DNA of 64,000 nucleotides. Source: an uncultured Gammaproteobacteria bacterium. GTDB taxonomy: Bacteria > Patescibacteriota > Microgenomatia > Levybacterales > GWA1-39-11. Shown here one piece after another: positions 27,766 through 43,157 of the stretch (its first letter is position 1; each line of letters begins with the position of its first letter). The translations under genes and the position numbers were made by a program. The notes beneath the pieces were generated by a model, which was not told the DNA's origin, made no database searches, and saw only the letters and a program-made list of their open reading frames with translations. Location: assembly GCA_964427615.1 (NCBI GenBank), contig CAYRUR010000001.1:50425-114424 (forward strand). Direction: 5' to 3'.

Positions 27766-27844
27766 CTCCTTTGCATATCAAGCTCAATATTGTATAATCG
27801 AAAGCGTATTCCGCGGTAGCTCAACGGTAGAGCAGGAAGCTGTA

Positions 27845-28412
27845 GCACTTTAAAAGAATTCTTTATCTGGCTATACTAAAAGTATGGCAGAAAAGAGAAC
27901 GTATGCTGACCGCCGAGAGTATTTAATTATGGCTGTTGCTCGAAGAAGAAAAAAACTTCGGGAAAAAGCTGTTGAATACAAAGGCGGAAAATGTATGATT
28001 TGTGGATATTCTCGCTGCCAAGCAGCGTTAGATTTTCATCACCTGGATGCCAATGAAAAAGAGTTTGGTATCTCGAAAGATGGAATAACAAGATCTTGGA
28101 AAAAAGTTCAAAAAGAGCTAGATAAATGTGTGCTCATTTGTTCTAACTGCCACAGAGAAGTACATGCAGGCATATTGCAGCCCTCTGCAGTAATGCAGAG
28201 TGGAAACATGGGGTGAATTCAGGGAAGCCCGCATCTTCAAAGAAGGGTAATCCTGAGCCAAGCTCGATAAATTGACAATAAAGTAATCGAGAAGGTGCAG
28301 AGACTAAGAGTGAGGAGTCATACCAATAAGCTCTATAAGCGCCCCATACCCTTAATATATGTATTAAGGGTAATGAGATAGTCCACACTTCTGGAAACAG
28401 AAGATAAAAGTG
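27845..28412 (+). mobile_element. Group I self-splicing intron inserted in the tRNA anticodon loop
   Basis: Conserved group I core elements are present: R-like GTGCAGAGACTAA (28296-28308) and S-like GAGATAGTCC (28375-28384), with P7 pairing GACTA/TAGTC. There is a terminal G before exon 2. The intron encodes an HNH ORF in a 5' peripheral region. Confidence 0.7.
27884..28216 (+). CDS. HNH homing endonuclease encoded within the tRNA group I intron
   Basis: 110 aa with CMICGYSRCQAALDFHHLDANEKEF...CSNCHREVH, i.e. an HNH motif (HH..N..CxxCH) with zinc-binding cysteines. Confidence 0.75.
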   Translation: MAEKRTYADRREYLIMAVARRRKKLREKAVEYKGGKCMICGYSRCQAALDFHHLDANEKEFGISKDGITRSWKKVQKELDKCVLICSNCHREVHAGILQPSAVMQSGNMG

Positions 28413-28438
28413 TAACTTCAAGGTTCTAGGTTCGAATC

Positions 28439-30127
28439 CTAGCCGCGGAGCACAGAAGGATTTTGAGACCACAAATCTTCTAAGTTAGTTGTATTATCAA
28501 CCTTTTCCGCAGGTTCTAACCGTGCAGAAATTGTAATTACTTTTTCTTTTGTTTCAGAAATATATTCCAGTGGTCTTTGAATCTGAGGAATAAGAATTTT
28601 GTCCCTAATTTTTAGGTTCGCACCAAGACCTGCAAATATTTCCCGTTTTGTTTGTCTGTCACCATTCTTAAACCAGTAACGGGCATAACATGCAAATTCA
28701 AACGTCTTTTCTGACAGCTCAACCCATTTACTAATTCTGTCTCCTGTATCTCCCAACTTTTCCTCAAGTCTTTGCTTTTCCCTCATCAATACCTCCTTTT
28801 GTGATCTAAATTCTTCATCACTGAGAAGGTTACCATTTGAATTGTGAGGAGATATCTTTAATTTAATAAGGTTATCAATACGCTTCGTAACATCACTGTA
28901 TGCCTCCTGTAACGCTCCTAGAGAAGCATTTCTGTCCTCAACCTCTCTATCATATAGCTCATTAATATACTTGATTGCCCAAGCCTTAAATTTCTCGGAT
29001 ATTTGAATGATAGAGAGTATCTCATCAATTTGTTTCTCAAGCTCTTCTTCTCGTATGCTACCTTGAGAACAATTAGAATCAACACGCTTTGTACAATGAT
29101 AATAAATATAATGAAGCAGGGTAGGATTATTCATCTCCTCAATTTTTACTTCACACTTAGGACAGACATCTTTATTTTGTGATGCAAATTTTTGCTTACA
29201 ATGAGGACAGATAATCTGGTACTTTTCTTCTGCGGTAATAGCAGCTCCACACTCACCACACTTCATAAGACCTCTATACAGAAATTCATAAGTTCTTGCT
29301 CTTGGACTTCCTTTTCTGCCAAGTAGCATTTGGACTCTCTGAAATTCTTCACGAGTAATCATTGGCTGATGTTTTCCTTTATGCCAAACTCCACTACCAA
29401 CGGGATATTCAAATTCCCCATAATAAAATGGATCAGTAAAAATTTTATAGATAAAACTTCTCGTCATTGGTTTTCCTCCTATACTTTTATGCTTGGGAGT
29501 TCTGTAGCCCATCTCGTCATTCAACATTCTAAGAATCTGAGGTGGAGTGTAGGTCCCCGTGAGCATCATATCCCATGCCTTCCTAATGAGAGGGAATCTC
29601 ACTGGATCAACTTTAATGGTCTTATTGCCTTTCTCAGCGTATTTATCATTCATATATCCAGGTTTTGCACCTGAAGGAAGCCATCCTTTTTCTGCTTTTT
29701 CCCGTAGTCCCCGCTTTACATTCTTTGAAAGATCATCAATAAACTTTTGAGCCATCCCAAATTCAACATACATCATAAATGAATTTTCACTTGCTTGATT
29801 GTACTCATTGGCAGGAGTACGCACCTCAATTCCTTTTTCTTTTATCATCCATATAACAGAACCTCCATCAACAGGATTCCTAGCCAAACGATCAACTTTC
29901 CAGCACAAAACGCCATCTATTCCCCCCTCGTACAAATAATTCATCATTTCGTTAAAAACGGGCCTTCCAGGGGCTTTTGCTGACCGTGACTCAGTATATA
30001 CCTTCACCACAGCGATATTGAGTCTTTTAGCCAACTCTTGAAGTTCTTTTATCTGAGAATCAATGGAGAGAACTTGTCTATCCTCTGACTCAGAGCTCTT
30101 TCTTGCATAAATGACATACTTTTTCAT
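28439..30127 (-). CDS. Large serine recombinase (integrase) with intact catalytic, recombinase and zinc-ribbon domains
   Basis: N-terminal resolvase domain [19 protein letters not shown]...[16 protein letters not shown], a recombinase domain, and zinc ribbon CGECGAA...CPHCKQKF...CPKCEVK with coiled coil. The 3' end overlaps the tRNA 3' exon by 12 nt. Confidence 0.85.
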
Positions 30128-30177
30128 AATCTTATTTTTATTTTGACCCGTCGCTTTTCCTAAGTCAACGGCCCTAC

Positions 30178-30741
30178 TTAACCCTTAATATTTTCATGAA
30201 TCCACCTGATATCACTTTCATCTAAGAGAGAGAAACGCTCTCTATCAAAATCCCAGTCGCTATTTTGATAACGTTCTTCTGATGAACCACCACCAGAAAC
30301 CTTATTCTTATCCTTATAGGAAACTATAGTATTACCACTACTTTTGCCTGAATCCTGTTGCATTGATGCATTATTTTGTTGCACCCTCGCATCATTAAAT
30401 TGCATACCTGAATTAGCTGACTGCACCTCTGCAATATCACTTACTAATACCCTATACCAACCATCCCCAATTTTACTCAAAACTCCCTTCTTTATTAGGC
30501 TATTGCGTGTTCTACAAACCTTTGAAGGTGACCAATGAAGAATGTTAGAAATATCGTAATCTGTAGCCTCAACTGTCATATATGTCTCTGTGTGTTTTTT
30601 ATCCCAATCATACAAAGCAAGACATAGATCAAATAAACGAAATTCTTGGTCTGTAAATTCCATTTCCTTTGCAATGACATGCCTGTTTCTTTTAACTTTT
30701 TGGTACGTTGTGTTTAGCCTTCTCTCAATAGGTCTTTTCAT
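30178..30741 (-). CDS. Hypothetical protein, possibly DNA-binding, carried by the integrative element
   Basis: 187 aa with a basic N-terminus, a putative winged-helix-like segment ([19 protein letters not shown]) and a low-complexity Q/N/S-rich C-terminus. Function unknown. Confidence 0.45.
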
Positions 30742-31311
30742 CTTTTATGCGATACTGTTTATAAATAAAAGCAAAAAAGTTCAAGAATCTTTTCGCAACT
30801 AATTGTGCCTCTTTTTCAGTAATATCTTCTCCATATTCTTCTTTCCATATTTTTTGAAACTCACTAATTGCACTTTTACTCAGCATGTTTCCTCCAATGA
30901 TCGGTTTTCAACAAAAATAATCTTTTTGAAAGTTTTAATAGTACCCAGAAGTATTCTTCATGTACAAATTGGGAATTTTTGCTGAAGTCACTTACATGCT
31001 CAATACATTTACCATAGAGAGAAAACTGAGAGTAGAGGGTGAAACTATTACGTCTTATACTGTGAAACTGTATGTCTTTTTGGGTAAGTAAGATTGGGAA
31101 GGTCTTTTTATCCTTGGTCGCAGAAAGGTTTTGTTTTGAGATTTCGTCTTTCATATACATATCCACACTCACATTTGTGCGGATGTGTACCGACCTTTCA
31201 ATCTCAGTACCTATGAAGGTATAGCGCCACTATACAAAATGCAATTTAGATTGTCAATACAGGTAAAACGTGTTATCTGAAGACACAAAATATACATCTA
31301 TATCACAGGTG

Positions 31312-31533
31312 TTACAAAGAGAGTAGTTCTGATAAGGAAATCTTTAGTGCTTCTGCAATTTTATGAACGGTATATATTGGCGGGTTACTCTCGCCTCTTT
31401 CAATCCTACCCATGTATGTTCTGTGAATTTCAGCATCATCCGCAAGATCTTCTTGGGAAATGTTCTGCTTCTTTCTCAGTTCCCTTATCCTTTCTCCGAA
31501 TCTTTTTAAAAATACATCCTTTGACTGCTTCAT
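31312..31533 (-). CDS. XRE-family helix-turn-helix transcriptional regulator (Cro/CI-like)
   Basis: QNISQEDLADDAEIHRTYMGRIERGESNPPIYTVHKIAEALKISLSELL is a canonical HTH_XRE. Confidence 0.8.
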   Translation of the reverse strand: MKQSKDVFLKRFGERIRELRKKQNISQEDLADDAEIHRTYMGRIERGESNPPIYTVHKIAEALKISLSELLSL

Positions 31534-31578
31534 GTTGAAATCGTATTCAAATGAACACTTGCAGTCTACACACGGAGA

Positions 31579-31788
31579 GTGTACAATACTCTCAACATTA
31601 TGATTTTTTCAAAGAAAAAGTGCCCAAGATGCAACAGCATAAACCTGAATAAAGTAAAGCCTAGTTTGTGGAAAAAATGGCAAAACGCATCAATGAACGT
31701 AATGTTCTTTCCATTTAGCTTATTAAGAAAACAAGTAAAGACTTTAAATGTGTGTCGCGATTGTGGGTTCTCTTGGGAAGATAGGTAA
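31579..31788 (+). CDS. Small zinc-ribbon protein
   Basis: 69 aa with CPRCNS...CRDCGF, two CxxC pairs. Divergent from the XRE gene across a 45-bp gap. Confidence 0.4.
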   Translation: MYNTLNIMIFSKKKCPRCNSINLNKVKPSLWKKWQNASMNVMFFPFSLLRKQVKTLNVCRDCGFSWEDR

Positions 31789-32071
31789 GTATGGGGAAAT
31801 ATAAGAGAGATTTTGAAAATTTTTACTATATCTTTTTACTAACTACGATACCTCAAAATCAACTTCAAAAATAGAATTTTAAATAGGGGGCATACTTTTG
31901 TAGAAGTAAAGAGACATACACGCTTACTCCCTTATAAACATGTTTTTCAACCTAATAAACTCTTATTTTGAATATCTTCCACTATATAATTGTTCATAAA
32001 ATCAGGTTATCTTGATATATCAAAGAGAACCTGCATACACACATTACTTTATCATTCAGATAATAAAGTAG

Positions 32072-33541
32072 TTGACAACTCTTTATCACTGGATTAATAT
32101 AGAGCTGATGGATAATCAAACTCACGAAAAAGTATATACTTACCTTCGGAATCAACTTGCACAGGCTGAAAAAAGACTTCAGGCATACACTGTAGATAGA
32201 GAAGGAAAACCATATTTGAAGCGAAGTGCAGCACTTGTACTTGAAAAGTATGTAAAAAACTTTTCTCAGAGTGGAAAGGAACCAAGATGGGTTGCTGTTC
32301 CAGGATTAAGAGGAGTGGGTAAAACCACATTGCTAGCACAAATATATACAGAATTAAGTTGTCCTCCTGGATATAAACTATATATTTCGCTAGATGAGGC
32401 GAGTCGTGTCCTTGGTGTAAGCTTAACAGACATACTTACAGTACACGAGGAATTGTTAGGAAAGCTCTATGAAGAACTTGATAAACCAGTATTCCTGTTT
32501 ATTGACGAAGTTCAATACGAAAAAAATTGGGGATTAGTTCTGAAGAGTATATATGACAGAAGTAAAAAAATATTTATCTTCTGTACAGGATCATCTGCTG
32601 TATCTTTACAAACAAACCCAGACGTATCAAGAAGAATTGTATTTGAAAAACTTTACCCACTTTCCTTTGTTGAATACATGCTTCTTAAACATCGTAAAAA
32701 GCCTATTACTGGCCTTGGAAAACAATTAAGAGACGCGCTAATTGCATCTTCTAGTGGAGAGGAAGTATATAAAAGACTTCTTAACTATCAGAATGATGTT
32801 AATAAGTACTGGATAGGAGTAGGAAGACTTGAAATTCAAAAGTACTTCAAATACGGCTCATTACCTTTTACCTTTCAGTTTACACAGGAACCCTTGATAT
32901 ACCAACAAATTGAACAGACCTTAACCAATATTCTTAACAAAGATATTCCTCAGTTAAGTAAATTTGAATCTGACACAATCACAAAAATGTATCAAATTCT
33001 TTACACAATCTCTGGTTCAAGTGTAACAAGCCTAAACTCCTTATCAAAAACTTTTAAAATATCAATTGTAACAATGGCAGAAATACTTGAGGTTTTTGAG
33101 AAATCAGAGATGTTACTTAGAATATACCCAAATGGATCACATTTTGGGCAAGTAAAAAAACCTTCAAAATATCTTTTTATCTCACCAGCATATAGGAGTA
33201 TGTTTTTCAACCTTATAGGTAGCACTTTTTCATACGATAATTACAAAGGGTTTCTTTTGGAAGATGTCGTTGGATTGTATCTCTATCGCACTTTGGGTTT
33301 AAGGTTTGGAACAAGCCTTACTTATGATAGTGCAGAGGGAGGAGCAGATTTTATTATAAGCTTTGATGATAAAAAAATAGTAGCTGAGATAGGTTATGGA
33401 AAAAAGGACTTTCAACAAGTAAAGACAACAATGAAGAGAGTTGGGGGTACATATGGCTTATCAATCTCTTCAACCCGACTTGCATTTGATAAAGACCAGA
33501 ATGTAATCTCAGTACCACTTGGCTACTTTTTACTAATATAA
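32072..33541 (+). CDS. AAA+ superfamily ATPase of the COG1373 / AAA_14-DUF4143 type
   Basis: Walker A VPGLRGVGKTTLL, Walker B FLFIDEVQY, and a C-terminal DUF4143-like region. 489 aa. Confidence 0.65.
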   Translation: MTTLYHWINIELMDNQTHEKVYTYLRNQLAQAEKRLQAYTVDREGKPYLKRSAALVLEKYVKNFSQSGKEPRWVAVPGLRGVGKTTLLAQIYTELSCPPGYKLYISLDEASRVLGVSLTDILTVHEELLGKLYEELDKPVFLFIDEVQYEKNWGLVLKSIYDRSKKIFIFCTGSSAVSLQTNPDVSRRIVFEKLYPLSFVEYMLLKHRKKPITGLGKQLRDALIASSSGEEVYKRLLNYQNDVNKYWIGVGRLEIQKYFKYGSLPFTFQFTQEPLIYQQIEQTLTNILNKDIPQLSKFESDTITKMYQILYTISGSSVTSLNSLSKTFKISIVTMAEILEVFEKSEMLLRIYPNGSHFGQVKKPSKYLFISPAYRSMFFNLIGSTFSYDNYKGFLLEDVVGLYLYRTLGLRFGTSLTYDSAEGGADFIISFDDKKIVAEIGYGKKDFQQVKTTMKRVGGTYGLSISSTRLAFDKDQNVISVPLGYFLLI

Positions 33542-33705
33542 CTAATCTTATGCAATAAGTTGGAGATTAATTTCATATCCTAACTCTGCTACTATTTTTA
33601 TGGGTCACACGTTTGTTCATTGCATGCTTCTGAGAACTAAGAAGAAATAATGAGCTATTTAAGAGCAGAGAAATGGAATTAAAGTAATCATAAGGTTATT
33701 TTGTT

Positions 33706-34659
33706 TTGAATAATTCTACTTGTAGAGGATATTCCTTCATGCCAAGACATAACAAAAAACATCACAAAATCCCAAAAACATATCTTGAAAGATTCACTGA
33801 TTCTGAAGGGTTTGTATGGATTGCAGATAGAAATCTCAATCTCTATCCCCAGAAACCAATAAACACTCTTACTGAAAATGATTATTACACAATACGGTTT
33901 AGAACAGGCGGTGGAACCCTTAATGTTGAAACAAAATTTTTAGGAGGAATAGAGACAAGATATTCAAAAATATATAAGCAAAAACTTGAAGGACAACAGC
34001 CCATATCTCAAGAGGACAAAGCAAAACTTTCAATATTTGTTGCCTCTATGTTGGAACGTCAACCAATGACACGACAGTCTCTTGAGAAGTTTTTCTCAGA
34101 AATTGAAGAACATATAACTCACATGAGAGGTTTACCAGACCATGTTAAGGAAAAAATGGCATCGGTTCCCGTGCTCTCTGGAAGTGGTCCATCATTCTCT
34201 GCGGATGAATTACTTGAAGCTGGGAAAGATGTCAGTTCACTTCACTCATCTCTTATACCCGACACTGTTGTTGATATTGCACCTATCATTTTTGATATGA
34301 AATGGGCATTTATGGTAAAACCAGAAAAATCAGAGCCTTTTATAACTTCCGATAATCCTTGTGTAATGGTTGACCCAGTGGGAGAAGCAGAATTCGGAAG
34401 GGGAACGTTTGGCGCAGCTCCAGGGTTTGTAAAAAAACATATAGAACTTACTCTGCCATTATCCAAGAATATGGCTCTCTTATGTGGATGGAAACTGGAG
34501 CATGACTGTTTTTACATAACAGTACCAGAAGGGCAGGTCAAAAACATAAATTTAAGGACAAAACGACACGCAGATTATGTTATTGGACACGATAAGAAAA
34601 TGCTCGAAGAAATGATAGAGAGAGTGAAAGCTTTTGAGAGAAAAACAGGCTCAAAATGA
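33706..34659 (+). CDS. DUF4238-like protein (a family reported as an antiphage gene)
   Basis: N-terminal NKKHHKIPKTYLERF resembles the conserved HH.P..YL..F start of DUF4238. 317 aa. The probable true start is the MPRHNKK ATG at 33739. Confidence 0.45.
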   Translation: MNNSTCRGYSFMPRHNKKHHKIPKTYLERFTDSEGFVWIADRNLNLYPQKPINTLTENDYYTIRFRTGGGTLNVETKFLGGIETRYSKIYKQKLEGQQPISQEDKAKLSIFVASMLERQPMTRQSLEKFFSEIEEHITHMRGLPDHVKEKMASVPVLSGSGPSFSADELLEAGKDVSSLHSSLIPDTVVDIAPIIFDMKWAFMVKPEKSEPFITSDNPCVMVDPVGEAEFGRGTFGAAPGFVKKHIELTLPLSKNMALLCGWKLEHDCFYITVPEGQVKNINLRTKRHADYVIGHDKKMLEEMIERVKAFERKTGSK

Positions 34660-34771
34660 TATATAGAAATTTCTTATATTGTCCTACATGCGGAACCAAC
34701 TATTTAGATTCAGAATTCTAGTACCCCACATGAGGCAGTAGAAACTCTGGTATACTTTTTGTGAAAATATA

Positions 34772-35464
34772 ATGAATAAGTCAGTAATCTACGCACGAGC
34801 ATTTGGAAAGCTCTACAAGCTATTTGATATTGTACTGAGAAACGATGAATCAATATACTTATACTTTCCAAGAAGAAAAGGCTACATTATAAAGAATAAG
34901 CAGGATATAGACCTTGGTGGCCAACAGAGCAAAACTTTTACCTTTAACAAGAATGTTCATGATAGAGTTACTAATCCATATGTGTCATTTCATCCAGGTA
35001 AAGGAGTAATACATGTGAATGCATTTAATGAAGAGAAAAAGATAGTACCTTTTCTTAAAGATAGAATGAGTCATTCTTTTAATGAGATATTAGATTCACA
35101 AACGTTTTTTCCTATACTAACAGTCCTTATCCCACCTGACATATTCAGCTTTGACAGTTTTGATGTACCACACAAGAATAATCTTATAGCTAACATTCCA
35201 CCTAATTTTCCCAAGGCTCTTTCAGTTGACTTAATAATCCATGAAAAGGGTGGTTATGTTGATAAGACTGAGCTGCCTTATGCAAGATTAAGAGATTTAG
35301 CTTTTATGGCTCATCTAAAAGATATACATACAAATAAAATCTCTTATACATTAGTTTTTAACAATGTTGAGGTGAGTGGTGAAGAGCTTTCAAGAGAAGT
35401 AATTACAATTATATGGAACAAGGAGATGCCGTTTTCTTTCTGTCTGAAGCCTCTTAAGGATTAG
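34772..35464 (+). CDS. Hypothetical protein
   Basis: 230 aa uninterrupted ORF with no recognised motif. Its stop overlaps the stop of the convergent recombinase fragment by 4 nt. Confidence 0.4.
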   Translation: MNKSVIYARAFGKLYKLFDIVLRNDESIYLYFPRRKGYIIKNKQDIDLGGQQSKTFTFNKNVHDRVTNPYVSFHPGKGVIHVNAFNEEKKIVPFLKDRMSHSFNEILDSQTFFPILTVLIPPDIFSFDSFDVPHKNNLIANIPPNFPKALSVDLIIHEKGGYVDKTELPYARLRDLAFMAHLKDIHTNKISYTLVFNNVEVSGEELSREVITIIWNKEMPFSFCLKPLKD

Positions 35465-36816
35465 GAAACAGACAAATAATAGGTTCTGATTGAGTCCATC
35501 AGGCGGAGCCAGAGTTCTCTTATCCGAACCAAGTCCATGTCTATGCAGGCTTGGAAGGCTTCGGTATAAGTGATATCAATGATTTTTTTGTTCTTAATCC
35601 AGATTTTTTGGATAAACCACTTCAGGAATTGTTTCCTCTCATTTTTGGTAAACGATTTATACAGTGCTGGTAAATCTTTTAGGGTGTTTATAATGGTATC
35701 TATCTTTTGCTCGTCTAAATTAGCGGATGGCCTTTTCAGTTTAGCAATTTTACCTTCAACTGCTTTCAGCTCTTCTCGTAATGGCACATATTTTGGTTCA
35801 ATTCGTTCTTTAGGAACCAGTTCTGATATTAACTGATCCTCCAGCTTATCCTTTTTCTTTTCGATAATTCTTTTACGATCTTCCAAGGCTTTAATTTGAC
35901 CTTGAATATCTTTACCTTGGGATCTCATGACATCCTCAAGCTCTGTCCGCAAAGCTCGTAAGAATCGTTCTCCAAATTTAATACCAGCAATATGGTCTTC
36001 GAGTTGTTTATGAACATCTTCCATGGGAGCATAAGGTTGAGTACATTTTATCTTTCTGTTTTTTGGCCCCATACATCGGTAATAACGGATTATTAACCCA
36101 CTTGGTTTTTTGTGCTCCTCACCGCTCATTAAAGTAGTGCATTCTTTACAAAAGACCATACCAGCCAGGAAAAAATTATGTTTTCTGGTTCTATCAGCGC
36201 CTTTATTGTGTTCTGCAAGCATAGCTTTTGCCTTATTTATATCATCCATCTCTACTACTTTAGGGTGGTGCCCTGGGTAAACCTTGCCCAAATATAAAAC
36301 TTTCCCTGCATATCTGACATCAGTAAGGATCGTATGAATTAAGCTATGACTTACTCTTTTACCATTAGGAGAGCGGAATCCTTCTTGATATAATTCTTCC
36401 TCTAACGTATAGACCGAAGGTGAAAGCCGGTTGTTAAACCTTCTAAAAATCTCTTTGATAAAATACTCTCGCTCCTTGTCAATTTTCCAGGGTACGCCTT
36501 TTTGAAATGAGTTAATATAGCCAATTCGTGCTTGTCCTGGTTGGAATCCTTTTTCAGCAAGAGCGATCATGGTACGCCTTGTTTTCTCACCAGTTATTTC
36601 TCGTTGGAGTTGATTAGCACCAGCCATCACCAAATCAACAAATTTTCCTACTGGATCATCTCCAAAGTTTGGTTGTTGCGTAGCAATAAGCTCGATATTA
36701 TGTTTTTTGAGAAGTGCTTTAACAGCTAAGTGATCTTGAGCATTTCTGGCAAACCGATCTGTTTCTTCCAGGAGAACGATATTTACATCCTTATCTGTAG
36801 GATATAATCGGGTTGT
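35461..36816 (-). pseudogene. 5'-truncated large serine recombinase that has lost its N-terminal catalytic region
   Basis: The ORF track shows a recombinase domain plus zinc ribbon from MVMAGANQ onwards. Manual upstream translation in the same frame gives TDKDVNIVLLEETDRFARNAQDHLAVKALLKKHNIELIATQQ (the C-terminal half of the resolvase catalytic domain; compare VDRLARN in the intact copy). The frame then hits a stop at 36817-36819 with no Ser-containing YxRxS motif upstream. An IS481-type transposase gene follows. Confidence 0.7.
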
Positions 36817-36835
36817 TTACACTTTTGGGAGGTGA

Positions 36836-37650
36836 AGACCTATCACAATTCATAAGAATACTCGATTAACCCCACATTTGCGAAAGGAGATATTTGAAAA
36901 GTATCATGTAGAGCGGATACGAGTAACTGAACTGGCTCGGCTGTATCATGTTTCACGAGTAACGATTTACAAAGTTTTGAAACGAGCTCGTCAGCAAGAG
37001 CTGTACCAACGCTCAAGTACTAATCTGCGTTATCGTAGTCTGGAGTATGGACTCAAGCGCTTAGCCAAGATCGAACAAAAACTTGAAGAAAAGCTAAAAA
37101 CACAGGCCAAACGTTATAACAAAGCCTATCCTGGTGAGATGCTCCATGTGGATACTTGTTCTCTGCCTCATCTACGGGGTGAGTCTCGTTTTACGCCTCA
37201 GGAATGTTTGCATATAGCCATTGATGATTTCTCTCGAGAGCTCTATGCAGCTATTCTGCCTGATAAAACAAGTGCTTCTAGTGCTTTGTTTTTAAAACAA
37301 GTTCTTGCTGAGTGTCCTTACACCATTGAACAAGTATACTCAGATAACGGGGTTGAATACAAAGGAAATCCTGATAAGCATGCATTTATGCAAGCTTGTG
37401 CAGAGCATGGCATTACCCAACGGTTTACCAGAGTCAGGACACCACGCACGAATGGAAAAGCAGAACGAGTGATCAGAACTATCTTTCAGATGTGGCATGA
37501 TAAGCATGAATTTACCAGTCGAGCTCAGCGGAAAGTGCTGTTAGTGCGTTTTGTCAATTATTGCAACACAGTTTGGGTTAAATCTTGTTGGATACGCAAC
37601 TGACGGATTCTATTTGCTAATTTTTTATCCTCTCGTTTTAACCTCCTCCT
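36836..37650 (+). mobile_element. IS481-family insertion sequence (boundaries approximate)
   Basis: Transposase ORF flanked on the left by the broken recombinase frame. Terminal inverted repeats could not be defined confidently by eye. Confidence 0.4.
36878..37603 (+). CDS. IS481-family DDE transposase (HTH plus rve integrase-core domain)
   Basis: N-terminal HTH RVTELARLYHVSRVTIYKVLKR, DDE core with HVDT..., SDNGVEY and TNGKAERVIRT. The apparent start is TTG at 36878; the frame is open from 36836. Confidence 0.8.
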   Translation: MRKEIFEKYHVERIRVTELARLYHVSRVTIYKVLKRARQQELYQRSSTNLRYRSLEYGLKRLAKIEQKLEEKLKTQAKRYNKAYPGEMLHVDTCSLPHLRGESRFTPQECLHIAIDDFSRELYAAILPDKTSASSALFLKQVLAECPYTIEQVYSDNGVEYKGNPDKHAFMQACAEHGITQRFTRVRTPRTNGKAERVIRTIFQMWHDKHEFTSRAQRKVLLVRFVNYCNTVWVKSCWIRN

Positions 37651-37809
37651 TTTTATGCGCTTCTTTCCCTCCTTCGATTCCATGTTTTTTAGTCTCGCAA
37701 GGAAGCAAATGGGTTACCATTAGCGCAAAGACAAGGAAAAGAGCTAAATGTATTGACTTTAGGATCTATTCTCGATACGCTTTTATATAGACCAGGCGCT
37801 AAGACAAAT

Positions 37810-38004
37810 ATGAAATTTCAAGTTCTCAACAAACATGACAATCCGAAAAGAAAGGAGCTTCTTAAAAAGGAACTACAGCTTTTTAAGGATCATCTCCAGA
37901 CACTTGCATGGCAATCTCACACCATTTTGAGTGGATTAAAAGAAGTACAGCAACGAAAACAAATAGAAGAAAAGATTAGACAGTTACAAACTCAACCAAA
38001 ATAA
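37810..38004 (+). CDS. Small coiled-coil protein immediately upstream of the MoxR-like ATPase
   Basis: MKFQVLNKHDNPKRKELLKKELQLFKDHLQTLAWQ...IEEKIRQLQTQPK. Ends 6 nt before the ATPase start. Uncertain whether it is expressed. Confidence 0.35.
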   Translation: MKFQVLNKHDNPKRKELLKKELQLFKDHLQTLAWQSHTILSGLKEVQQRKQIEEKIRQLQTQPK

Positions 38005-38010
38005 AAATGT

Positions 38011-39732
38011 ATGTCACAACCAACAGAGCCCCATATAGAAGATAATGTTAGAGGACTGGATCAGCGTGCCGAAAAACAACTTGTAAGACGAGAAATTTCT
38101 GAAGGTGTTAGTGAGTATTTTGATACTAAAGCAGAAGCTCGCACAGCAGCAGAGCATACACGAGGTGCTATTGGTCAGGATTTAAGATATGCCGAGGGAT
38201 TAAGAGATACGGGTGGGTCTACTGCTGAAACGGGCATCAGACGAATTAAGGATATTGCAGATCAGGTTGATACAGATACAGCAGCGTTTGAAGCAAAAGC
38301 AGATCGGTTGAGTTCTCCATACGTTATTTCTCCCCAGTTAGCAAAAGAACATAAAGTTGCAAGATTTCTTAAAAAACCACATTTACTTGAAGGTGAACCT
38401 GGAACAGGGAAAACCTCGCTTGCTTACGCCGTTGCAGGTGACGAAGGTTTGCCCTTAATTCATTGCCGAGGGAAAAGTACGCTAACTGCTCAATCAGTTA
38501 TGTATGAGGTAGATTATGTTGGGAGATTAAATGATGCCATGCTTGCACAAAATATCCCCGATGTATTACGAGGACAGACACAACAATGGGTCAAGTATTT
38601 AGAGTCTGGTGGGGATCCTAATGCAGCAGAATTCCAAAGTTTTATGGTTGGTTTTGAACACTCAGCAAAGTTATTAAATTTAGAAAAAGTATCAGATGTT
38701 AGAAGATACTTAAAATACGGTGAATTAGGAGAGGCTATTATCAGAGGAGCACAGGGTGAAAAAGTAGTTTTACTCTTTGATGAAATTGATAAGGCAAAGC
38801 GAGAATTCCCCAATGATTTACTTGATGAATTAGAACATCTAACTATACGAATCAGAGAAACAGGTGAGGAAATAAGCGCACCGAGAGAAAATGTTTTTGT
38901 TCTAATCACCTCAAATCATGAACGAGACTTACCAGAACCATTTTTAAGAAGATGCGTTTATAGTTATATAGATTTTCCTGATGCTGAACAAATGACAGAA
39001 ATTGTGAGGGCACATACTCCGGATATCAATGAGAGACTTCTTGAGAGCGCTGCAAGAAGATTTTACGAGATACGAGGACGAGCTGACTTACAGAAAAAAC
39101 CGTCTACATCAGAAATGTTAGATTGGGTACGAGTTCTCCAAGAGTTTGGAGTGGAAGAAGTAACTGACGAGACCCCATTTGCTGAAACACTACTTAAATA
39201 TAAGGAGGATCAAGATAAGTTAGGTGTCAGAGGGCGAAGAGAAGAAAAACTAATACAATCTGGTTTACCAGAATCAGTTGTCGCAGCACTCAATGGGGAT
39301 AAAGTAGTTCGCTTAAGAGCTGCCTCGTATTATGACCGAAATCCAAGCCCACAAGCATTAGTAAAATTAGCAAACGCTGGGTATCGGTTTACAACCGCAA
39401 AATCTGAAGACAGAAATGGCAGACCGTTTAATATACACGCCGATAATGTAAGACGAGTTGATGACTTAACATTTACTATTCTACCTTACGAAAAAACCAA
39501 GGATGGTACTATTACAAGCCCAAGTGATTTATACGAAATTTTAGAAGGAGCAGAAGCTATTGAATCAACAATGGAAGTGACAGATACACCAATAGAACTT
39601 GCTTCTATAGAAGATGGCAATGAGTATTTTATAAAAGGCAAAGATGCCCAAGGAAGAACAGTCTATCGAATGTCAGATGGGCGATTTGTCTACGAACAAC
39701 AAGTAGGGCAACATGCCAGCGAAAACTATTAA
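38011..39732 (+). CDS. MoxR-like (AAA_5) AAA+ ATPase with N- and C-terminal extensions
   Basis: Walker A LLEGEPGTGKTSLAYAVA, Walker B VVLLFDEIDKA, sensor region VFVLITSNHERDLPEPFLRRC. About 200 aa of unrecognised C-terminal sequence. Confidence 0.75.
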   Translation: MSQPTEPHIEDNVRGLDQRAEKQLVRREISEGVSEYFDTKAEARTAAEHTRGAIGQDLRYAEGLRDTGGSTAETGIRRIKDIADQVDTDTAAFEAKADRLSSPYVISPQLAKEHKVARFLKKPHLLEGEPGTGKTSLAYAVAGDEGLPLIHCRGKSTLTAQSVMYEVDYVGRLNDAMLAQNIPDVLRGQTQQWVKYLESGGDPNAAEFQSFMVGFEHSAKLLNLEKVSDVRRYLKYGELGEAIIRGAQGEKVVLLFDEIDKAKREFPNDLLDELEHLTIRIRETGEEISAPRENVFVLITSNHERDLPEPFLRRCVYSYIDFPDAEQMTEIVRAHTPDINERLLESAARRFYEIRGRADLQKKPSTSEMLDWVRVLQEFGVEEVTDETPFAETLLKYKEDQDKLGVRGRREEKLIQSGLPESVVAALNGDKVVRLRAASYYDRNPSPQALVKLANAGYRFTTAKSEDRNGRPFNIHADNVRRVDDLTFTILPYEKTKDGTITSPSDLYEILEGAEAIESTMEVTDTPIELASIEDGNEYFIKGKDAQGRTVYRMSDGRFVYEQQVGQHASENY

Positions 39733-39735
39733 CTT

Positions 39736-41307
39736 ATGTATGAAGGCGCAGAAACAAGTCCACAACCGCAACCACCTCATATCCCAGAACTATCTTCCCA
39801 GCAAGAAGGCGGACATGATTTCCAATATGACCCCGAAGCCCAAAGTATTCTTGTCCGTTCTGTAGATAGGTCAGGGACAATTAAGGAACAAAAACATCCC
39901 TTTCAAGAACTTCTTTACTCTCTGCGAAATGAAGGTGTTCAAGCTACAACTAGCGAATGGCTTGATCTTCAACGTTGTTTAGCAGAAGGCCAAGTACAAA
40001 GTCTTGATGACTTATATGTCATTGCCCGGAGCTTGCTGGTAAAAGATGTCTCAGGATTTCCATCATTTGATACTGTGTTCGGAAGAGTTTTTTATGGCGT
40101 TGAACCACCAAAGCCAAAAAATGAAGATGAATGGAGTGATGAATATGAAGAACCAGAAGAAGAGCCTCAACAAGAACGAGATCAAGATGAGGCAGAAGAT
40201 GAAGCCACAGAAGAACCTATTCAAAAGGAAAAAGAAGATATAGAAGAAGTGGTAGAAGCAACTACAAAAACTTCGGAAGATGTTCATGGTGGTGATGAGG
40301 CGACCAAAGACATAGAAGATTCTCCAAATGCTGCAAATGAAGGCAAGCAACTTGATAACCATGGTGCTGAAAAAGGAAAGAGTAAAGAAAATCAAAAGAA
40401 AAAAGGCGAAGGTGGAGGCCAACAGCAACAAAATGCTCAGGGTGGAGGTAATCAACAAGAAAAAGGACAAGGAGGCGGTGACAAAAATACTGAAGGAGAA
40501 GGTGGCGATGGTGAAAAAGAAAATGATGCCGGTGGAGGTAAAAGGTTAGAAAAAGCAGAAGGTGTAGTAAAGGAAGGAAAAGGTGGGTTTTCTGCTCGTG
40601 AACGAGTCATGGAGCGAAGGTATGATGGCTATGACAAAGACAAGATCTTAGGATATGAACAATTTAGCCAAGTTCTTGCAAAACTTACTACTATTATGCG
40701 TGATGCAACTACAATTAGGACATCACGATTAGATCAGCTTGCTACTGCTCGGAGTATTGCACAGCATGGCGGCGTACCAGAATTTGTTTGGGAAGAAGAA
40801 GCAGAGGAAAAGCCAAAAGTTGTTGTATTATTTGACGTTGGAGGAAGTACTGATGAATTCCGTCCTATTATGGAAAAACTTTTCGCCGCTGCAAAAGATA
40901 CTATTGATGAACTTGATGTTTATTATTTTCATAATGCTATCTACGGCGATGTTTGGCCACAGAAAGATGGTAACTGGGGGGAGCACTTTATTCCAATGCG
41001 AGAAATACTAAAAAGAGATGAAAACACCAGGGTTATAATTGTAGGTGATGCTTGGATGGCAGAAGGTGAGCTACATGGTGGAGGTTCTTATTATGATGAA
41101 CAAGAAAGTTCAGAAACCGGATACGATAACTTCAGAAAAATACAACGAACATTTCCTCATACTGTCTGGGTAAATCCGATTTTAGAAAGAGATCATGAGC
41201 AATGGGATAATTCAGGAACAATTGCAGACATTAAAGGTATTTTCCCAATGTATGATTTAACTCTACGAGGTTTAGAAAATGCAGTTAGACGTTTAATGGA
41301 AGAATAA
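39736..41307 (+). CDS. vWA-domain protein (partner of the MoxR ATPase) with a long acidic/Gly-rich disordered linker
   Basis: C-terminal VVVLFDVGGSTDEF (MIDAS-like DxGxS/T) ... IIVGDAWM. The central ~170 aa is E/D/K/G/Q low complexity (EDEWSDEYEEPEEEPQQ...GGGQQQQNAQGGGNQQEKGQGGG). Confidence 0.65.
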   Translation: MYEGAETSPQPQPPHIPELSSQQEGGHDFQYDPEAQSILVRSVDRSGTIKEQKHPFQELLYSLRNEGVQATTSEWLDLQRCLAEGQVQSLDDLYVIARSLLVKDVSGFPSFDTVFGRVFYGVEPPKPKNEDEWSDEYEEPEEEPQQERDQDEAEDEATEEPIQKEKEDIEEVVEATTKTSEDVHGGDEATKDIEDSPNAANEGKQLDNHGAEKGKSKENQKKKGEGGGQQQQNAQGGGNQQEKGQGGGDKNTEGEGGDGEKENDAGGGKRLEKAEGVVKEGKGGFSARERVMERRYDGYDKDKILGYEQFSQVLAKLTTIMRDATTIRTSRLDQLATARSIAQHGGVPEFVWEEEAEEKPKVVVLFDVGGSTDEFRPIMEKLFAAAKDTIDELDVYYFHNAIYGDVWPQKDGNWGEHFIPMREILKRDENTRVIIVGDAWMAEGELHGGGSYYDEQESSETGYDNFRKIQRTFPHTVWVNPILERDHEQWDNSGTIADIKGIFPMYDLTLRGLENAVRRLMEE

Positions 41308-41318
41308 TCCCTCAGCTT

Positions 41319-41546
41319 TTATAAAGCTATTGCAGGAGCTTGAGAACTCTCTGTTTTTGCCCTATAATCGCTTATGGTACGGATAATATCCCAGAGGGGG
41401 AGCCATAGTTGATTATCATTGTACGATAATATCGTATCAAATGGTTTTTGAGCTTGAAATTGCACGTTTTTACCCTCTAATTTCAGGTTCTGAAGTGTAA
41501 GCCTTATTAACTGCCGTCTTTCTTCAACTTCTGAACTTTCAAACAA
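41319..41546 (-). CDS. Small hypothetical protein, last gene of the minus-strand four-gene cluster
   Basis: 75 aa ORF with no motif. Confidence 0.3.
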   Translation of the reverse strand: MFESSEVEERRQLIRLTLQNLKLEGKNVQFQAQKPFDTILSYNDNQLWLPLWDIIRTISDYRAKTESSQAPAIAL

Positions 41547-41652
41547 TTCATACGCTTTATTTGCCAGTTCTAGTAGGTATTTAGCCGTGATGTAGTAGTT
41601 ATCCTCTGCTTCCTGTAATAATGCCAGTATGGTATCTATATCCGCAATCTGT

Positions 41653-42129
41653 TCACAGAACGACTGATAAATCTGTCATGGTCGCTTTCAGTAATACACC
41701 TGTAGCTATATCATATTGGGGTGTTTGCATGCCCTTTATTATGTTTAGCTGTTGTTCCAGTATCTGTATTTGAAGCTCCGTCATATACGCCTCACATTCT
41801 TCTTTTTGTCTTTCCCAGTCTGATTTTTTGATAGTTACAGGCGGGTCATATCTTTCAAAATTAACTAAATCAACTTCAGGTGGTTCGTATATCGGTAGCT
41901 CTGGCATTTTGATAGTCTGCAAAATGTCTAAAGCAGGAAACTTGTAAGCTGTGATCGTCTTCAAAACTTCTGCCATGTTTGAGTTTGCTATCTCGGCTAA
42001 AGTAGTCCCTAGTTTGGTAAATTGCTCATGATTTGCTTCTACAATCGGTTTTAATGCTTCTGCTCGTTCTTCAACAGACATCTTATCCAAATCGTAGAGA
42101 GTTACTTTTTTATCAGATAATTTCGGCAT
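41653..42129 (-). CDS. Hypothetical protein, third gene of the minus-strand cluster
   Basis: 158 aa, acidic, with coiled-coil-like segments. No motif recognised. Confidence 0.4.
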   Translation of the reverse strand: MPKLSDKKVTLYDLDKMSVEERAEALKPIVEANHEQFTKLGTTLAEIANSNMAEVLKTITAYKFPALDILQTIKMPELPIYEPPEVDLVNFERYDPPVTIKKSDWERQKEECEAYMTELQIQILEQQLNIIKGMQTPQYDIATGVLLKATMTDLSVVL

Positions 42130-42155
42130 ATGTCATTACATCTTCAAAAAACGGT

Positions 42156-43154: not shown

Positions 43155-43157
43155 AGG

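What the first reader, a model, noticed from the sequence alone, without database searches (positions are those of the whole stretch)
28411..30127. Large serine recombinase gene whose 3' end overlaps the tRNA 3' exon, suggesting an integrative element inserted at the tRNA
The last four codons and stop of the 562-aa serine recombinase (catalytic domain, recombinase domain, zinc ribbon and coiled coil) overlap the T-arm/acceptor of the tRNA. Integrase genes that abut a tRNA 3' end are the classic signature of an integrated element using the tRNA as attB, although that is typical of tyrosine integrases; a large serine recombinase here is less common. Downstream cargo lacks core genes until about 44 kb.
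Basis: partly seen in the sequence, partly recalled or inferred. Interest (0 to 1): 0.55.

Follow-up and report, generated by a model that had tools for sequence, protein, structure and literature searches.

The report
Serine-integrase elements stacked at tRNA-Asn
The recombinase is the integrase of a 7-kb mobile element inserted at the last bases of an intron-containing tRNA-Asn gene in a Patescibacteria genome, and it is the newest of three such elements stacked at that site; the family is common in these bacteria, and its own reading frame crosses the recombination site.

Summary
A 562-aa large serine recombinase (LSR1, 28439-30127, minus strand) ends inside the 3' exon of a tRNA-Asn(GUU) gene that is split by a group I intron.

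There is no repeat of the tRNA 3' end, and none is expected for a serine recombinase. Comparisons with about 100 related loci place the host/element junction at the last bases of the tRNA (shared core GAGC, tRNA positions 71-73 plus one).

The element's other end is a 27-nt "P arm" at 35482-35508. It matches the tRNA arm with 5 extra bases between two shared motifs, which is the known attP/attB spacing rule for these enzymes. Element E1 is therefore about 7.06 kb (28451-35508) and carries candidate anti-phage defence genes.

Beyond E1 lie two older elements of distantly related LSR families. E2 has its recombinase cut by an IS. E3 retains only a C-terminal remnant, and a relative (L022) carries an E3-type recombinase fused directly to tRNA-Asn.

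Because the LSR reading frame spans attP, integration replaces a 12-25-aa tail with tRNA-encoded codons. Of the 120 closest homologues, 75% have tRNA-encoded ends. Unoccupied tRNA-Asn sites exist in other species. No excised form was observed, and the island's right end was not found.

The parts
27810..27843 (+). tRNA-Asn(GUU) 5' exon (positions 1-35, ends ...CTGT)
   Evidence: The spliced sequence is called tRNA-Asn(gtt) by ARAGORN and aligns to the intact tRNA-Asn of L006.
27844..28412 (+). Group I intron (569 nt) between anticodon nucleotides 35 and 36; contains the HNH homing-endonuclease-like ORF 27884-28216
   Evidence: Rfam RF00028, 100.5 bits. HNH: PHROG E=2.8e-31; Pfam match weak.
28413..28450 (+). 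tRNA-Asn 3' exon; the B arm of the left junction is GGTTCGAATCCTAGCCGCGGAG (28429-28450)
28445..28451 (.). J1 = attL of element E1. GCGGAGC is the core shared with J2. The crossover is inferred within GAGC (28448-28451).
   Evidence: Junction comparisons. Cores: GCGGAGC (window), GGAGCAA (L033), GAGCA (L006), GGAGC (L003).
28439..30127 (-). LSR1, an intact 562-aa large serine recombinase (integrase of E1); its last 3 codons and stop are encoded by the tRNA
   Evidence: PHROG integrase E=2e-70.
28451..35508 (.). Element E1 (about 7.06 kb), the newest and tRNA-proximal element
   Evidence: Bounded by J1 and J2. GC is 0.33-0.35 in its cargo and 0.39-0.41 in E2.
30178..30741 (-). E1 backbone: 187-aa HTH protein in the position of the HTH_36/DnaD_N-like gene of related elements; weak match to replication initiator O
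   Evidence: The position is conserved in L003, L006, L009, L012 and L031.
31312..31533 (-). E1 backbone: Cro/C1-type HTH repressor
   Evidence: Pfam HTH_3 E=2e-16; PHROG repressor.
32072..33541 (+). E1 cargo: AAA_14/DUF4143 ATPase, PADLOC candidate defence protein PDC-S01
   Evidence: E=3.7e-31.
33706..34659 (+). E1 cargo: DUF4238 protein (PADLOC DUF4238-Pers)
34772..35464 (+). E1 far-end ORF (230 aa, no family match), convergent with the P arm
35482..35508 (+). J2: P arm of E1 (GGTTCTGATTGAGTCCATCAGGCGGAG), joined to the 3' end of LSR2 (a P1-o-P2' hybrid junction). Its antisense encodes the tail ...LRLMDSIRTYYLSVS* (35461-35508).
   Evidence: A PWM built only from P arms of other loci scores it 25.8 bits; the next hit in the window scores 9.9. 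The inner 15 nt are identical to the attR arm of L034. Tail motif.
35461..36804 (-). LSR2, the recombinase of the older element E2. It is a distant family (23% identity to LSR1) and lacks residues 1 to about 63, including the catalytic serine.
36878..37603 (+). IS transposase (rve) that truncates LSR2
35509..41402 (.). Element E2 (about 5.9 kb including the IS); carries an AAA ATPase (38011-39732) and a VWA protein (39736-41307)
41376..41402 (+). J3: P-type arm of E2 (GGTACGGATAATATCCCAGAGGGGGAG), joined to the 3' end of the LSR3 remnant
   Evidence: Homology with L022 begins exactly at GGAG|CC.
41319..41780 (-). LSR3 remnant: the C-terminal ~90-130 codons of a third LSR family, plus a tail borrowed from E2's P arm. 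Homologues are fused directly to tRNA-Asn in L019, L020 and L022.
41781..47000 (.). Remaining low-GC accessory DNA (includes Hypoth_Ymh 43158-43931 and SHOCT 44692-45342); the island's right boundary was not located

Best explanation
LSR1 is the integrase of a ~7.06-kb integrative element, E1 (28451-35508), inserted by serine-recombinase site-specific recombination at the extreme 3' end of the host tRNA-Asn(GUU) gene.

The crossover lies within GAGC, which is tRNA positions 71-73 plus the next base. The whole tRNA body therefore stays host-derived and presumably functional. No long repeat is made.

The attP site sits inside the 3' end of the LSR reading frame. In the free form the protein would end ...NPSVL-RLMDSIRTYYLSVS* (574 aa). 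After integration the tail-coding P arm is carried to the far end of the element, and the gene instead reads into the antisense of the tRNA acceptor stem (...NPSVLRG*, 562 aa).

The left arm of attP copies the tRNA arm (GGTTCGAA...TCC...GGAG) with 5 extra bases between the two motifs. This is how these enzymes tell attP from attB.

New elements insert at the tRNA and push older ones outward. The window thus holds a stack: tRNA | E1 (intact) | E2 (recombinase cut by an IS) | E3 (recombinase remnant) | further accessory DNA. The cargo is candidate anti-phage defence.

Shown: the junction architecture, the conservation of the site, unoccupied sites in other species, and the stacked structure. Inferred: the exact crossover dinucleotide (probably GA), the order of insertion, present-day activity, and any function of the tail.
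For: (1) Site conservation. LSR1 homologues at 59-67% identity are fused to tRNA-Asn(GTT) by 13-42 nt in L003/5, L006/7 and L033, and in 12 further metagenome loci. They are fused to intron-containing tRNAs in L009, L079, L085 and L100. Of the 120 closest proteins, 90 have C-termini that are antisense translations of a tRNA acceptor or T arm.

(2) The tRNA is a host gene. L027 has the intron-containing tRNA-Asn directly against rpoD-dnaG with no LSR. About 10 of 16 species-representative tRNA-Asn genes have no ORF running into them.

(3) Breakpoint. Window J3 and L022 are about 79% identical to the right of GGAG|CC and unrelated to the left, where L022 has the tRNA and the window has a P arm.

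(4) Single-element cases show both predicted junctions. L033 has attL tRNA...TGCGGAG|CAAGGATAGATTTT, and 7.6 kb away a free P arm GGTTCTAACGTTGTCCACGAGGTGGAG|CAAAATTT preceded by a stop codon. L034 (8.65 kb), L108 (8.8 kb) and L101 are similar.

(5) A PWM built from 15 P arms of other loci singles out 35482-35508 in the window: 25.8 bits against 9.9 for the next hit, and above all 20 shuffles.

(6) All P arms span 27 nt from GGTTC to GGAG, against 22 nt in the tRNA. This matches the 5-bp ZD-motif shift between attP and attB described in PMC3783163.

(7) Body and tail are decoupled. LSR2 bodies of the window, L003 and L006 are about 25% identical, but their tails are 80-90% identical, including 18 of 18 nt. 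P0007/P0010 and P0069/P0109 are 87% identical up to ...LL and then switch between the tail and tRNA forms. In L133 the tail-form LSR has tRNA-Asn 1.74 kb beyond it and a canonical P arm at its far end.

(8) Backbone and cargo. The Cro/C1, DUF5659 and HTH_36 backbone recurs next to the LSR while the cargo varies between loci. GC content steps at J2 and J3.
Against: No excised circle, empty site or junction polymorphism was found for this species. Only three contigs carry the neighbouring sigma-factor gene: the two read show the same recombinase and adjacent genes, and the third was grouped with them and not displayed. No whole-contig locus is circular, and IMG/VR has no matching junction.

The right half of attB (the sequence 3' of the tRNA) is not conserved between hosts, which is unusual for LSRs. 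No clear dyad partner of the P' arm was found.

About 30 of 80 more distant family members have the tail form with no tRNA or second LSR within 10 kb. So the tail form is often something other than a tandem hybrid. L031 and L109 have arm combinations that the simple model does not predict.

The island's right-hand junction was not found. No recombination directionality factor was identified.
Confidence: 0.77

Rival explanations
1. The whole region from 28.4 to about 44-47 kb is a single large integrated element mobilised by LSR1. The other recombinase-like ORFs are cargo or accessory recombinases, as with the multi-recombinase systems CcrAB or TnpX.
For: The whole region is accessory and mostly low in GC. 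A second LSR recurs 5-7 kb from the first in L003 and L006.
Against: LSR2 lacks its catalytic serine region and is cut by an IS, and LSR3 is a fragment. J2 is a high-scoring P arm exactly at the end of LSR2. Related single elements are 7.6-8.8 kb and end at a free P arm. LSR3-type genes sit directly on tRNA-Asn in L019, L020 and L022. The second LSRs of the window, L003 and L006 are only about 25% identical to each other.
Confidence: 0.08
2. Classical tRNA-island model. The crossover lies inside the tRNA (anticodon or T loop). The element carries a replacement tRNA 3' end that overlaps its integrase gene, and the displaced host 3' end lies at attR as a direct repeat.
For: This is the usual pattern for tRNA-associated islands. 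J2 and J3 show some resemblance to a tRNA 3' end (GGTTC...GGAGCCA).
Against: There is no copy of the tRNA 3' segment in 64 kb, even allowing 12 mismatches in 38 nt. The J2-type arms do not fold as T arms and are 5 nt longer, and they are conserved between genomes as arms rather than as decaying tRNA ends. The L022/window breakpoint lies at GGAG|CC, not inside the tRNA. The 5' and 3' strands of the acceptor stem covary between hosts: CCGCGGA, CCGGGGA.
Confidence: 0.04
3. The recombinase and its neighbours are now a fixed, immobile fossil or a domesticated gene, inherited vertically at a conserved position downstream of dnaG-rpoD.
For: The homologues lie in the same chromosomal neighbourhood in several genomes. 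No excised form or same-species polymorphism was seen.
Against: The neighbourhood is conserved because the host tRNA-Asn lies there, whether or not an LSR is present (L027). Cargo differs completely between genomes. Subfamilies sit at other tRNAs: His, Ser, Gln, Gly. Stacking shows repeated insertion. LSR1 is full length with all invariant residues. Loss of activity in this particular copy cannot be excluded.
Confidence: 0.1
4. The intron-containing tRNA-Asn is itself cargo of the element, and the true attachment site lies upstream of the tRNA.
For: Mobile elements often carry tRNAs. The intron with its HNH gene is itself mobile DNA.
Against: The same intron-containing tRNA-Asn occurs without any LSR in L015, L016 and L027. 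The tRNA stays next to host genes (SIMPL, DsbB, rpoD) in occupied genomes, on the side away from the element. No other tRNA-Asn was found in the window.
Confidence: 0.02

Closest known systems
Large serine integrases of temperate phages and ICEs (A118/LI, phiC31, Bxb1, TP901-1, SPbeta SprA)
   Same: The domain architecture is the same: resolvase catalytic domain, recombinase domain and zinc ribbon. The att sites are short with only a few shared bases. The shared distal motif sits 5 bp further from the crossover in the attP-type arm than in the attB-type arm (rule from PMC3783163).
   Different: The characterised examples target protein-coding genes or intergenic sites (own knowledge). The large LSR survey PMC10083194 analysed only protein-coding targets, and its main text never mentions tRNA. 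Here the target is the last bases of a tRNA gene, which is left intact. attP lies inside the integrase's own 3' coding end. The elements are 5-9 kb with no phage structural or conjugation genes. Sequence similarity to solved LSRs is low (best E=1e-11, N-terminal domain only).
tRNA-targeting genomic islands with tyrosine integrases (P4-like integrases, ICEKp1 at tRNA-Asn and others)
   Same: The integrase gene abuts the 3' end of a tRNA. The tRNA stays functional. The same tRNA serves as a hotspot, and islands stack in tandem there (own knowledge; tRNA-Asn islands are mentioned in PMC13023037).
   Different: The enzyme class and chemistry differ. Tyrosine-integrase islands duplicate 15-50 nt of the tRNA 3' end as direct repeats. 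Here no repeat exists, and only 4-7 nt are shared between junctions.
SCCmec/SCC elements (CcrAB serine recombinases) at the 3' end of rlmH (orfX)
   Same: Serine recombinases insert elements at the extreme 3' end of a conserved housekeeping gene without inactivating it. Composite tandem arrays build up at the one site (own knowledge).
   Different: The target is a protein-coding gene, the recombinases act as a pair encoded in the middle of the element, and the hosts are staphylococci. In the elements described here a single LSR sits at the element's edge and its reading frame crosses the junction.
Elements whose attP lies inside one of their own genes: SSV1-type integrases (int is split on integration) and integration-dependent immunity of mycobacteriophages (attP inside the repressor gene)
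   Same: Integration rewrites the 3' end of an element gene, so the integrated and free forms encode different proteins (own knowledge).
   Different: Those systems use tyrosine integrases, and in the mycobacteriophages the gene affected is the repressor. Here the serine integrase gene itself is affected, and only its last 12-25 residues change. Whether that has any regulatory effect is unknown.

Membership tests
Large serine recombinase (LSR) / serine integrase | N-terminal resolvase-type catalytic domain with a serine nucleophile | tested here: met
   Pfam PF00239 E=2.6e-25. Aligns to PDB 3g13 and 3bvp (TP901-1), with S11 in the YxRxS motif. Y7, R9, K10 and S11 are invariant in 24 family members.
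Large serine recombinase (LSR) / serine integrase | C-terminal recombinase domain (PF07508) followed by a zinc-ribbon domain with Cys ligands | tested here: met
   PF07508 E=7.6e-9 and PF13408 E=1.2e-7. Weak match to the A118 integrase C-terminal domain, 4kis/6dnw. C290, C293, C307, C310, C322, C325, C345 and C353 are invariant.
Large serine recombinase (LSR) / serine integrase | Coiled-coil motif inserted in the zinc-ribbon domain | not tested
   Residues ~380-470 are rich in heptad-like sequence by eye. No coiled-coil prediction or structure model was run.
Large serine recombinase (LSR) / serine integrase | Short att sites with identity limited to a small core around a 2-bp crossover, and no long direct repeats | tested here: met
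   No repeat of the tRNA end. Junction pairs share 5-7 nt, and the intersection of those cores is the 4-nt GAGC. The exact dinucleotide is not determined.
Large serine recombinase (LSR) / serine integrase | Distal (ZD) motif 5 bp closer to the crossover in attB than in attP half-sites (PMC3783163) | tested here: met
   From GGTTC to GGAG is 22 nt in the tRNA arm and 27 nt in the 20 distinct P arms collected, five of which have a G-to-C or G-to-A change in GGAG. Shown for the left arms only. The right arms (P', B') were not resolved.
Large serine recombinase (LSR) / serine integrase | Recombination directionality factor for excision | not tested
   Candidate small ORFs exist in E1 (30725-30886, 30876-31172, 31579-31788), but none has a family match.
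Site-specific integrative element (genomic island) | The same target site is occupied in independent genomes by related integrases with a conserved backbone and variable cargo | tested here: met
Site-specific integrative element (genomic island) | Unoccupied target sites exist | tested here: met
   About 10 of 16 species-representative tRNA-Asn genes with the same 3' end have no ORF running into them, and L027 has the same intron and rpoD linkage. No empty site was found within the window's own species.
Site-specific integrative element (genomic island) | Both junctions are identifiable, and attP and attB can be reconstructed | tested here: met
   E1: J1 at 28450 and J2 at 35508. The reconstructed attP gives an open 574-aa ORF. 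Single-element relatives: L033, L034, L108.
Site-specific integrative element (genomic island) | An excised circular form, or a polymorphism for presence and absence | tested here: inconclusive
   No circular contigs among the whole-contig loci and no IMG/VR junction. Raw reads could not be searched. Near-identical LSR bodies in different tail states (87% identity) are indirect support.
tRNA-Asn(GUU) with group I intron | Cloverleaf with a GUU anticodon after removal of an intron that matches the group I model | tested here: met
   Splicing itself is not testable here.

The most novel reading that the evidence does not exclude
Because the recombinase gene straddles attP, every integration or excision rewrites the enzyme's own C-terminus: a conserved 12-25-aa D-x-V-R-T tail in the free form, and 2-10 tRNA-encoded residues in the integrated form. 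This switch would act as a built-in sensor of the element's state that sets directionality, stability or expression. It would be a serine-integrase counterpart of integration-dependent immunity. In the same reading, the P arm is an evolved mimic of the tRNA T-arm and acceptor with a 5-bp spacer, which lets several unrelated LSR families share one universal landing site in Patescibacteria.
Probability: 0.25. Interest if true: 0.75.

Novelty: new variant of a known kind. Interest (0 to 1): 0.58.

Why it matters
Serine integrases are the main tools for inserting large DNA fragments. Their natural targets have been catalogued almost entirely among protein-coding genes.

This work describes an abundant family (thousands of members) in Patescibacteria, a poorly studied and genetically hard-to-manipulate group. 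The family lands on the last bases of a universal gene, tRNA-Asn, without damaging it. The att sites could be read from comparative data alone: a B arm, a P arm and a 4-nt core.

That has three consequences. It gives concrete attP and attB sequences to test as an integration system for Patescibacteria. It is a natural example of the 5-bp attP/attB spacing rule, with a tRNA as the template. And it shows how small defence-gene cassettes accumulate by repeated insertion at one site in very small genomes.

If the C-terminal tail swap proves to be regulatory, it would be a new way for a serine integrase to sense whether it is integrated.

Tried and rejected
None was found at up to 3 mismatches in 20 nt, 12 in 38, 7 in 25, 3 in 16 or 1 in 12.

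(2) An inverted-repeat partner of the LSR-proximal P' arm at element ends. Nothing rose above noise in the window, L003, L006 or L009.

(3) The idea that unoccupied sites keep a genomic CCA while occupied ones read GAG-CA. I dropped this when L019, L020 and L022, which read 'CCA' or 'CCC', turned out to be occupied by LSR3-family elements whose P' arm begins CCA or CCC.

(4) Reading J2 as a decayed, displaced tRNA 3' end. I rejected this because the arm does not fold as a T arm, is 5 nt longer, and is conserved as such in about 20 loci.

(5) The tandem-hybrid explanation for all tail-form LSRs. It fails for the more distant members, which have no tRNA or second LSR within 10 kb. It holds for the close relatives: the window, L003, L006 and L133.

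(6) Looking for free phage or plasmid forms. IMG/VR gave no hit with the single protein and only two near-full-length hits with the family alignment. There was no junction-pattern hit and there were no circular contigs.

(7) A same-species empty site via the exact sigma-factor protein. Only three contigs carry it; the two read show the same recombinase and adjacent genes, and the third was grouped with them and not displayed.

(8) A PWM scan for the island's right-hand junction. Nothing was found right of J3.

(9) Literature searches for LSR integration into tRNA genes, or for LSR elements in Patescibacteria. No description was found.
Full report
**1. What is at the coordinates**

The minus-strand ORF 28439-30127 encodes a 562-aa protein with Pfam Resolvase (E=2.6e-25), Recombinase and Zn_ribbon_recom domains. 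It also matches a PHROG integrase family (E=2e-70). Its N-terminal domain aligns with solved LSR catalytic domains, and S11 sits in the YxRxS motif.

ARAGORN reports no tRNA anywhere in the window. Rfam finds a group I intron at about 28114-28404 (100.5 bits). Reading the flanks gives a 5' exon (27810-27843), a 569-nt intron (27844-28412) and a 3' exon (28413-28450). The intron carries an HNH ORF at 27884-28216 (PHROG E=3e-31). The spliced 72-mer is called tRNA-Asn(GTT) by ARAGORN and is nearly identical to an intact tRNA-Asn from another genome.

The recombinase stop codon (28439-28441) lies in the T stem. Codons G562, R561 and L560 are the antisense of acceptor positions 65-73.

**2. The configuration is a family trait, not chance**

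The protein has thousands of homologues, mostly from Patescibacteria/Microgenomates such as Daviesbacteria, Levybacteria and Shapirobacteria.

- In L003/5, L006/7 and L033, and in twelve other metagenome loci, the homologue overlaps tRNA-Asn(GTT) by 13-42 nt.
- In L009, L079, L085 and L100 it abuts a group I intron, as it does here.
- Of the 120 closest proteins, 55 stop at the acceptor-stem codons (...LL[P/R][R/G/D]*). Another 35 read on into 'xDSN(H/L/Q)EP', the antisense of GGTTCGAATCC. That is 75% in a tRNA-fused state.
- More distant subfamilies are fused to tRNA-His, Ser(CGA), Gln or Gly.

**3. The tRNA is a host gene, and empty sites exist**

The occupied loci all lie downstream of dnaG-rpoD. 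L027 shows the same intron-containing tRNA-Asn directly against rpoD-dnaG with no recombinase.

I checked 16 species-representative genomes whose tRNA-Asn has the same 3' end:

- About ten have no antisense ORF running into the tRNA.
- Three (L019, L020, L022) carry a different LSR family there.
- Two or three are ambiguous.

Next to the LSR, the related elements share a backbone of a Cro/C1 repressor, DUF5659 and an HTH_36/DnaD_N-like protein. Their cargo differs completely: SLFN/AlbA, LexA-like, nSTAND NTPases, OLD-like ATPase plus helicase, restriction-modification, and others.

**4. Where the junction is**

Four other lines of evidence locate the junction.

(a) *LSR3 comparison.* At about 41.4 kb the window has the C-terminal remnant of a third LSR. 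Its homologue in L022 is fused directly to tRNA-Asn and ends ...NYNDNQPGLRG*, with the stop inside the tRNA. The two sequences are about 79% identical to the right of GGAG|CC and unrelated to the left, where L022 has the tRNA and the window has a different arm. The breakpoint is therefore at the very end of the tRNA, not in its loops.

(b) *A second class of C-terminus.* In this class the ORF continues after ...LL(R/P)x into a tail, (M/W/V)D.(V/F)RT(Y/W).... The DNA that encodes this tail is a conserved 27-nt arm, GGTTC(G/T)AAC...GT(C/T)CA...GGAG.

(c) *Single-element relatives.* These have the arm free-standing at the far end of the element.

| Locus | Left junction | Far end |
|---|---|---|
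| L033 | tRNA...TGCGGAG\|CAAGGATAGATTTT | 7.6 kb away, GGTTCTAACGTTGTCCACGAGGTGGAG\|CAAAATTT, with a stop codon where an LSR body would be |
| L034 | LSR ends ...LLRG* | free arm 8.65 kb away |
| L108 | tRNA-type end | free arm 8.8 kb away |
| L101 | tRNA-Asn | free arm present |

. This is the expected attL = B-o-P' and attR = P-o-B'.

(d) *Shared cores.* The cores of the junction pairs are GCGGAGC (window), GGAGCAA (L033), GAGCA (L006) and GGAGC (L003). Their intersection is GAGC.

**5. The right end of the window's element**

A weight matrix built only from 15 P arms of other loci gives 25.8 bits for 35482-35508 (GGTTCTGATTGAGTCCATCAGGCGGAG). The next best hit in the window scores 9.9. The maximum over 20 shuffles was 22.2 and the mean was 9.8. 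The inner 15 nt of this arm are identical to the attR arm of L034.

Joining this arm to the LSR1 side of J1 gives an open 574-aa frame ending ...[22 protein letters not shown], like the tails of P0007, P0055 and P0091. E1 is therefore 28451-35508, about 7.06 kb.

Its contents are:

- LSR1
- an HTH protein with a weak match to replication initiator O
- two small ORFs
- a Cro/C1 repressor
- a zinc-ribbon ORF
- an AAA_14/DUF4143 ATPase matching the PADLOC candidate system PDC-S01 (E=4e-31)
- a DUF4238 protein (PADLOC DUF4238-Pers)
- a 230-aa ORF

. It has no phage structural genes and no conjugation genes.

**6. The P arm follows the serine-integrase rule**

In the tRNA (B) arm, GGTTCGAA-TCC...GGAG spans 22 nt. 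In every P arm the same motifs span 27 nt, with five extra bases between GGTTCGAA and TCC. For example, L031 reads GGTTCGAA-CAGCG-TCCATTGCCCGGAG against the tRNA's GGTTCGAA-TCCTAGCCGCGGAG.

Rutherford et al. (PMC3783163) showed that LSR attB half-sites carry the zinc-ribbon-domain motif 5 bp closer to the crossover than attP half-sites do. That difference is what lets the enzyme tell the sites apart. The match here was obtained for the left arms only. I could not define the right arms, and the sequence 3' of the tRNA is not conserved between hosts.

A TCC/GGA dyad suggests that the central dinucleotide is GA (tRNA 71-72). This is a weak inference.

**7. The island is a stack**

At J2 the P arm of E1 is fused in frame to LSR2 (35461 to about 36804). 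LSR2 is only 23% identical to LSR1. It lacks residues 1 to about 63, including the catalytic serine, and it ends 74 nt from an rve transposase gene.

At J3 (41376-41402) a further P-type arm is fused to the LSR3 remnant.

The order is tRNA | E1 (intact) | E2 (broken by the IS) | E3 (remnant). Decay increases with distance from the tRNA. This fits repeated insertion at the tRNA, though insertion into an existing attR would give the same map. GC content steps at about 35-36, 41-42 and 47 kb.

Three observations support the idea that the tails at J2 and J3 belong to the neighbouring element rather than to LSR2 or LSR3:

- The LSR2 bodies of the window, L003 and L006 are about 25% identical, but their tails are 80-90% identical, including 18 of 18 nt.
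- LSR pairs that are 87% identical (P0007/P0010 and P0069/P0109) switch between the tail and tRNA forms exactly after ...LL.
- In L133 the tail-form LSR has tRNA-Asn 1.74 kb beyond it, a degenerate arm beside it and a canonical arm at its own far end.

I did not find the right end of the stack. Core genes (PIG-L, TruB, SOD... DnaA) start at about 47.7 kb.

**8. What does not fit**

- About 30 of 80 more distant family members (40-55% identity) have long conserved tails and no tRNA or second LSR within 10 kb. One of them, L052, lies in an ICE-like region. They may be elements in the free state or elements that use other sites. I found no circular contigs and almost nothing in IMG/VR.
- L031 has a P-type arm beside its LSR although core genes follow it. 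L109 has two nearly identical P arms 1.2 kb apart.
- A small group (P0042 and relatives) has another conserved 45-aa tail.
- No excised form, and no same-species polymorphism, was seen for E1. Present-day activity is therefore inferred only from the intact gene.

**9. Comparison with what is known, and verdict**

The enzyme meets the tested defining features of a large serine integrase (see the membership table). The system works like a phage or ICE serine-integrase module. Its choice of target resembles tyrosine-integrase tRNA islands. Its build-up at the 3' end of a housekeeping gene resembles SCC elements at rlmH.

Three things are not described in the literature I could search. These are an LSR family dedicated to the terminal bases of tRNA genes, an attP embedded in the integrase's own 3' coding end so that the protein's tail changes with integration state, and the abundance of such small defence-carrying elements in Patescibacteria.

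I rate it a new variant of a known kind, of moderate-to-good interest. The expected att repeat and the single-element reading are both wrong.

Noticed in passing
window 27844-28412 (intron), 27884-28216 (HNH ORF): A 569-nt group I intron with an HNH endonuclease ORF splits tRNA-Asn(GUU) between anticodon nucleotides 35 and 36, which hides the gene from ARAGORN. Similar introns lie in tRNA-Asn genes of L009, L015, L016, L027, L079, L085 and L100. So the intron is widespread in this lineage and occurs with or without the recombinase.
   Followed up: partly
window 25622-26713 and 26755-27765: Two sigma-70 family genes lie in tandem downstream of dnaG. The second lacks region 1.1. Related genomes (L003, L006, L009, L027) show only one sigma gene at this position.
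   Followed up: no
window 36878-37603: An rve-family IS transposase sits immediately upstream of the truncated LSR2. No terminal inverted repeats were found in 36550-38100, so the ends of the IS are undefined.
   Followed up: partly
window 38011-41307: An AAA ATPase (573 aa, weak IetA/TRIP13-like P-loop hits in PADLOC) is paired with a VWA/CoxE-like protein (523 aa) in element E2. This may be a two-gene defence or stress module of unknown type.
   Followed up: partly
L031 11681-11707 and 3772-3798; L109 3113-3139 and 4350-4376: These loci have a P-type arm beside the LSR where core-like genes or only a 1.2-kb segment follow, plus a second P arm elsewhere. The simple attL/attR model does not predict this. 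Possible causes are LSR-less mini-elements or later rearrangements.
   Followed up: partly
L133 11722-13460: A 1.74-kb segment with four small ORFs and no recombinase lies between tRNA-Asn and a tail-form LSR. It is bounded by a tRNA arm on one side and a degenerate P arm on the other. It may be an integrase-less, cis-mobilisable element.
   Followed up: partly
L043, L071, L075, L077, L086, L092, L095: More distant members of the same LSR family (41-53% identity) are fused in the same way to tRNA-His(GTG), tRNA-Ser(CGA), tRNA-Gln(TTG) or tRNA-Gly(TCC). The family has therefore switched tRNA targets.
   Followed up: no
L012 10001-21821: P0042 (606 aa) carries a different conserved 45-aa C-terminal extension, shared with P0051, P0101 and P0119, and has no tRNA. 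It is followed by a Qat-like defence cluster (KAP NTPase, QatB, TatD), a restriction-modification pair and a tyrosine integrase.
   Followed up: no
L029 about 7038-7202 (oriented with the tRNA on +): A resolvase-type N-terminus starts 145 nt 3' of tRNA-Asn and reads away from it. This is the opposite orientation to every other case.
   Followed up: no
L027 677-1794: In this relative the tRNA-Asn is convergent with rpoD, with 5 nt between the tRNA end and the rpoD stop. In the window and in L003/L006 it is co-directional. There has been an inversion around this site between lineages.
   Followed up: no
L064 7110-7227; L135 69-186: Rfam LOOT RNA matches (82-92 bits) lie within a few kb of the LSR elements in two loci.
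   Followed up: no
window 57470-58807: dnaA lies about 10 kb to the right of the island's approximate end, so the tRNA-Asn insertion hotspot is close to the probable replication origin region.
   Followed up: no
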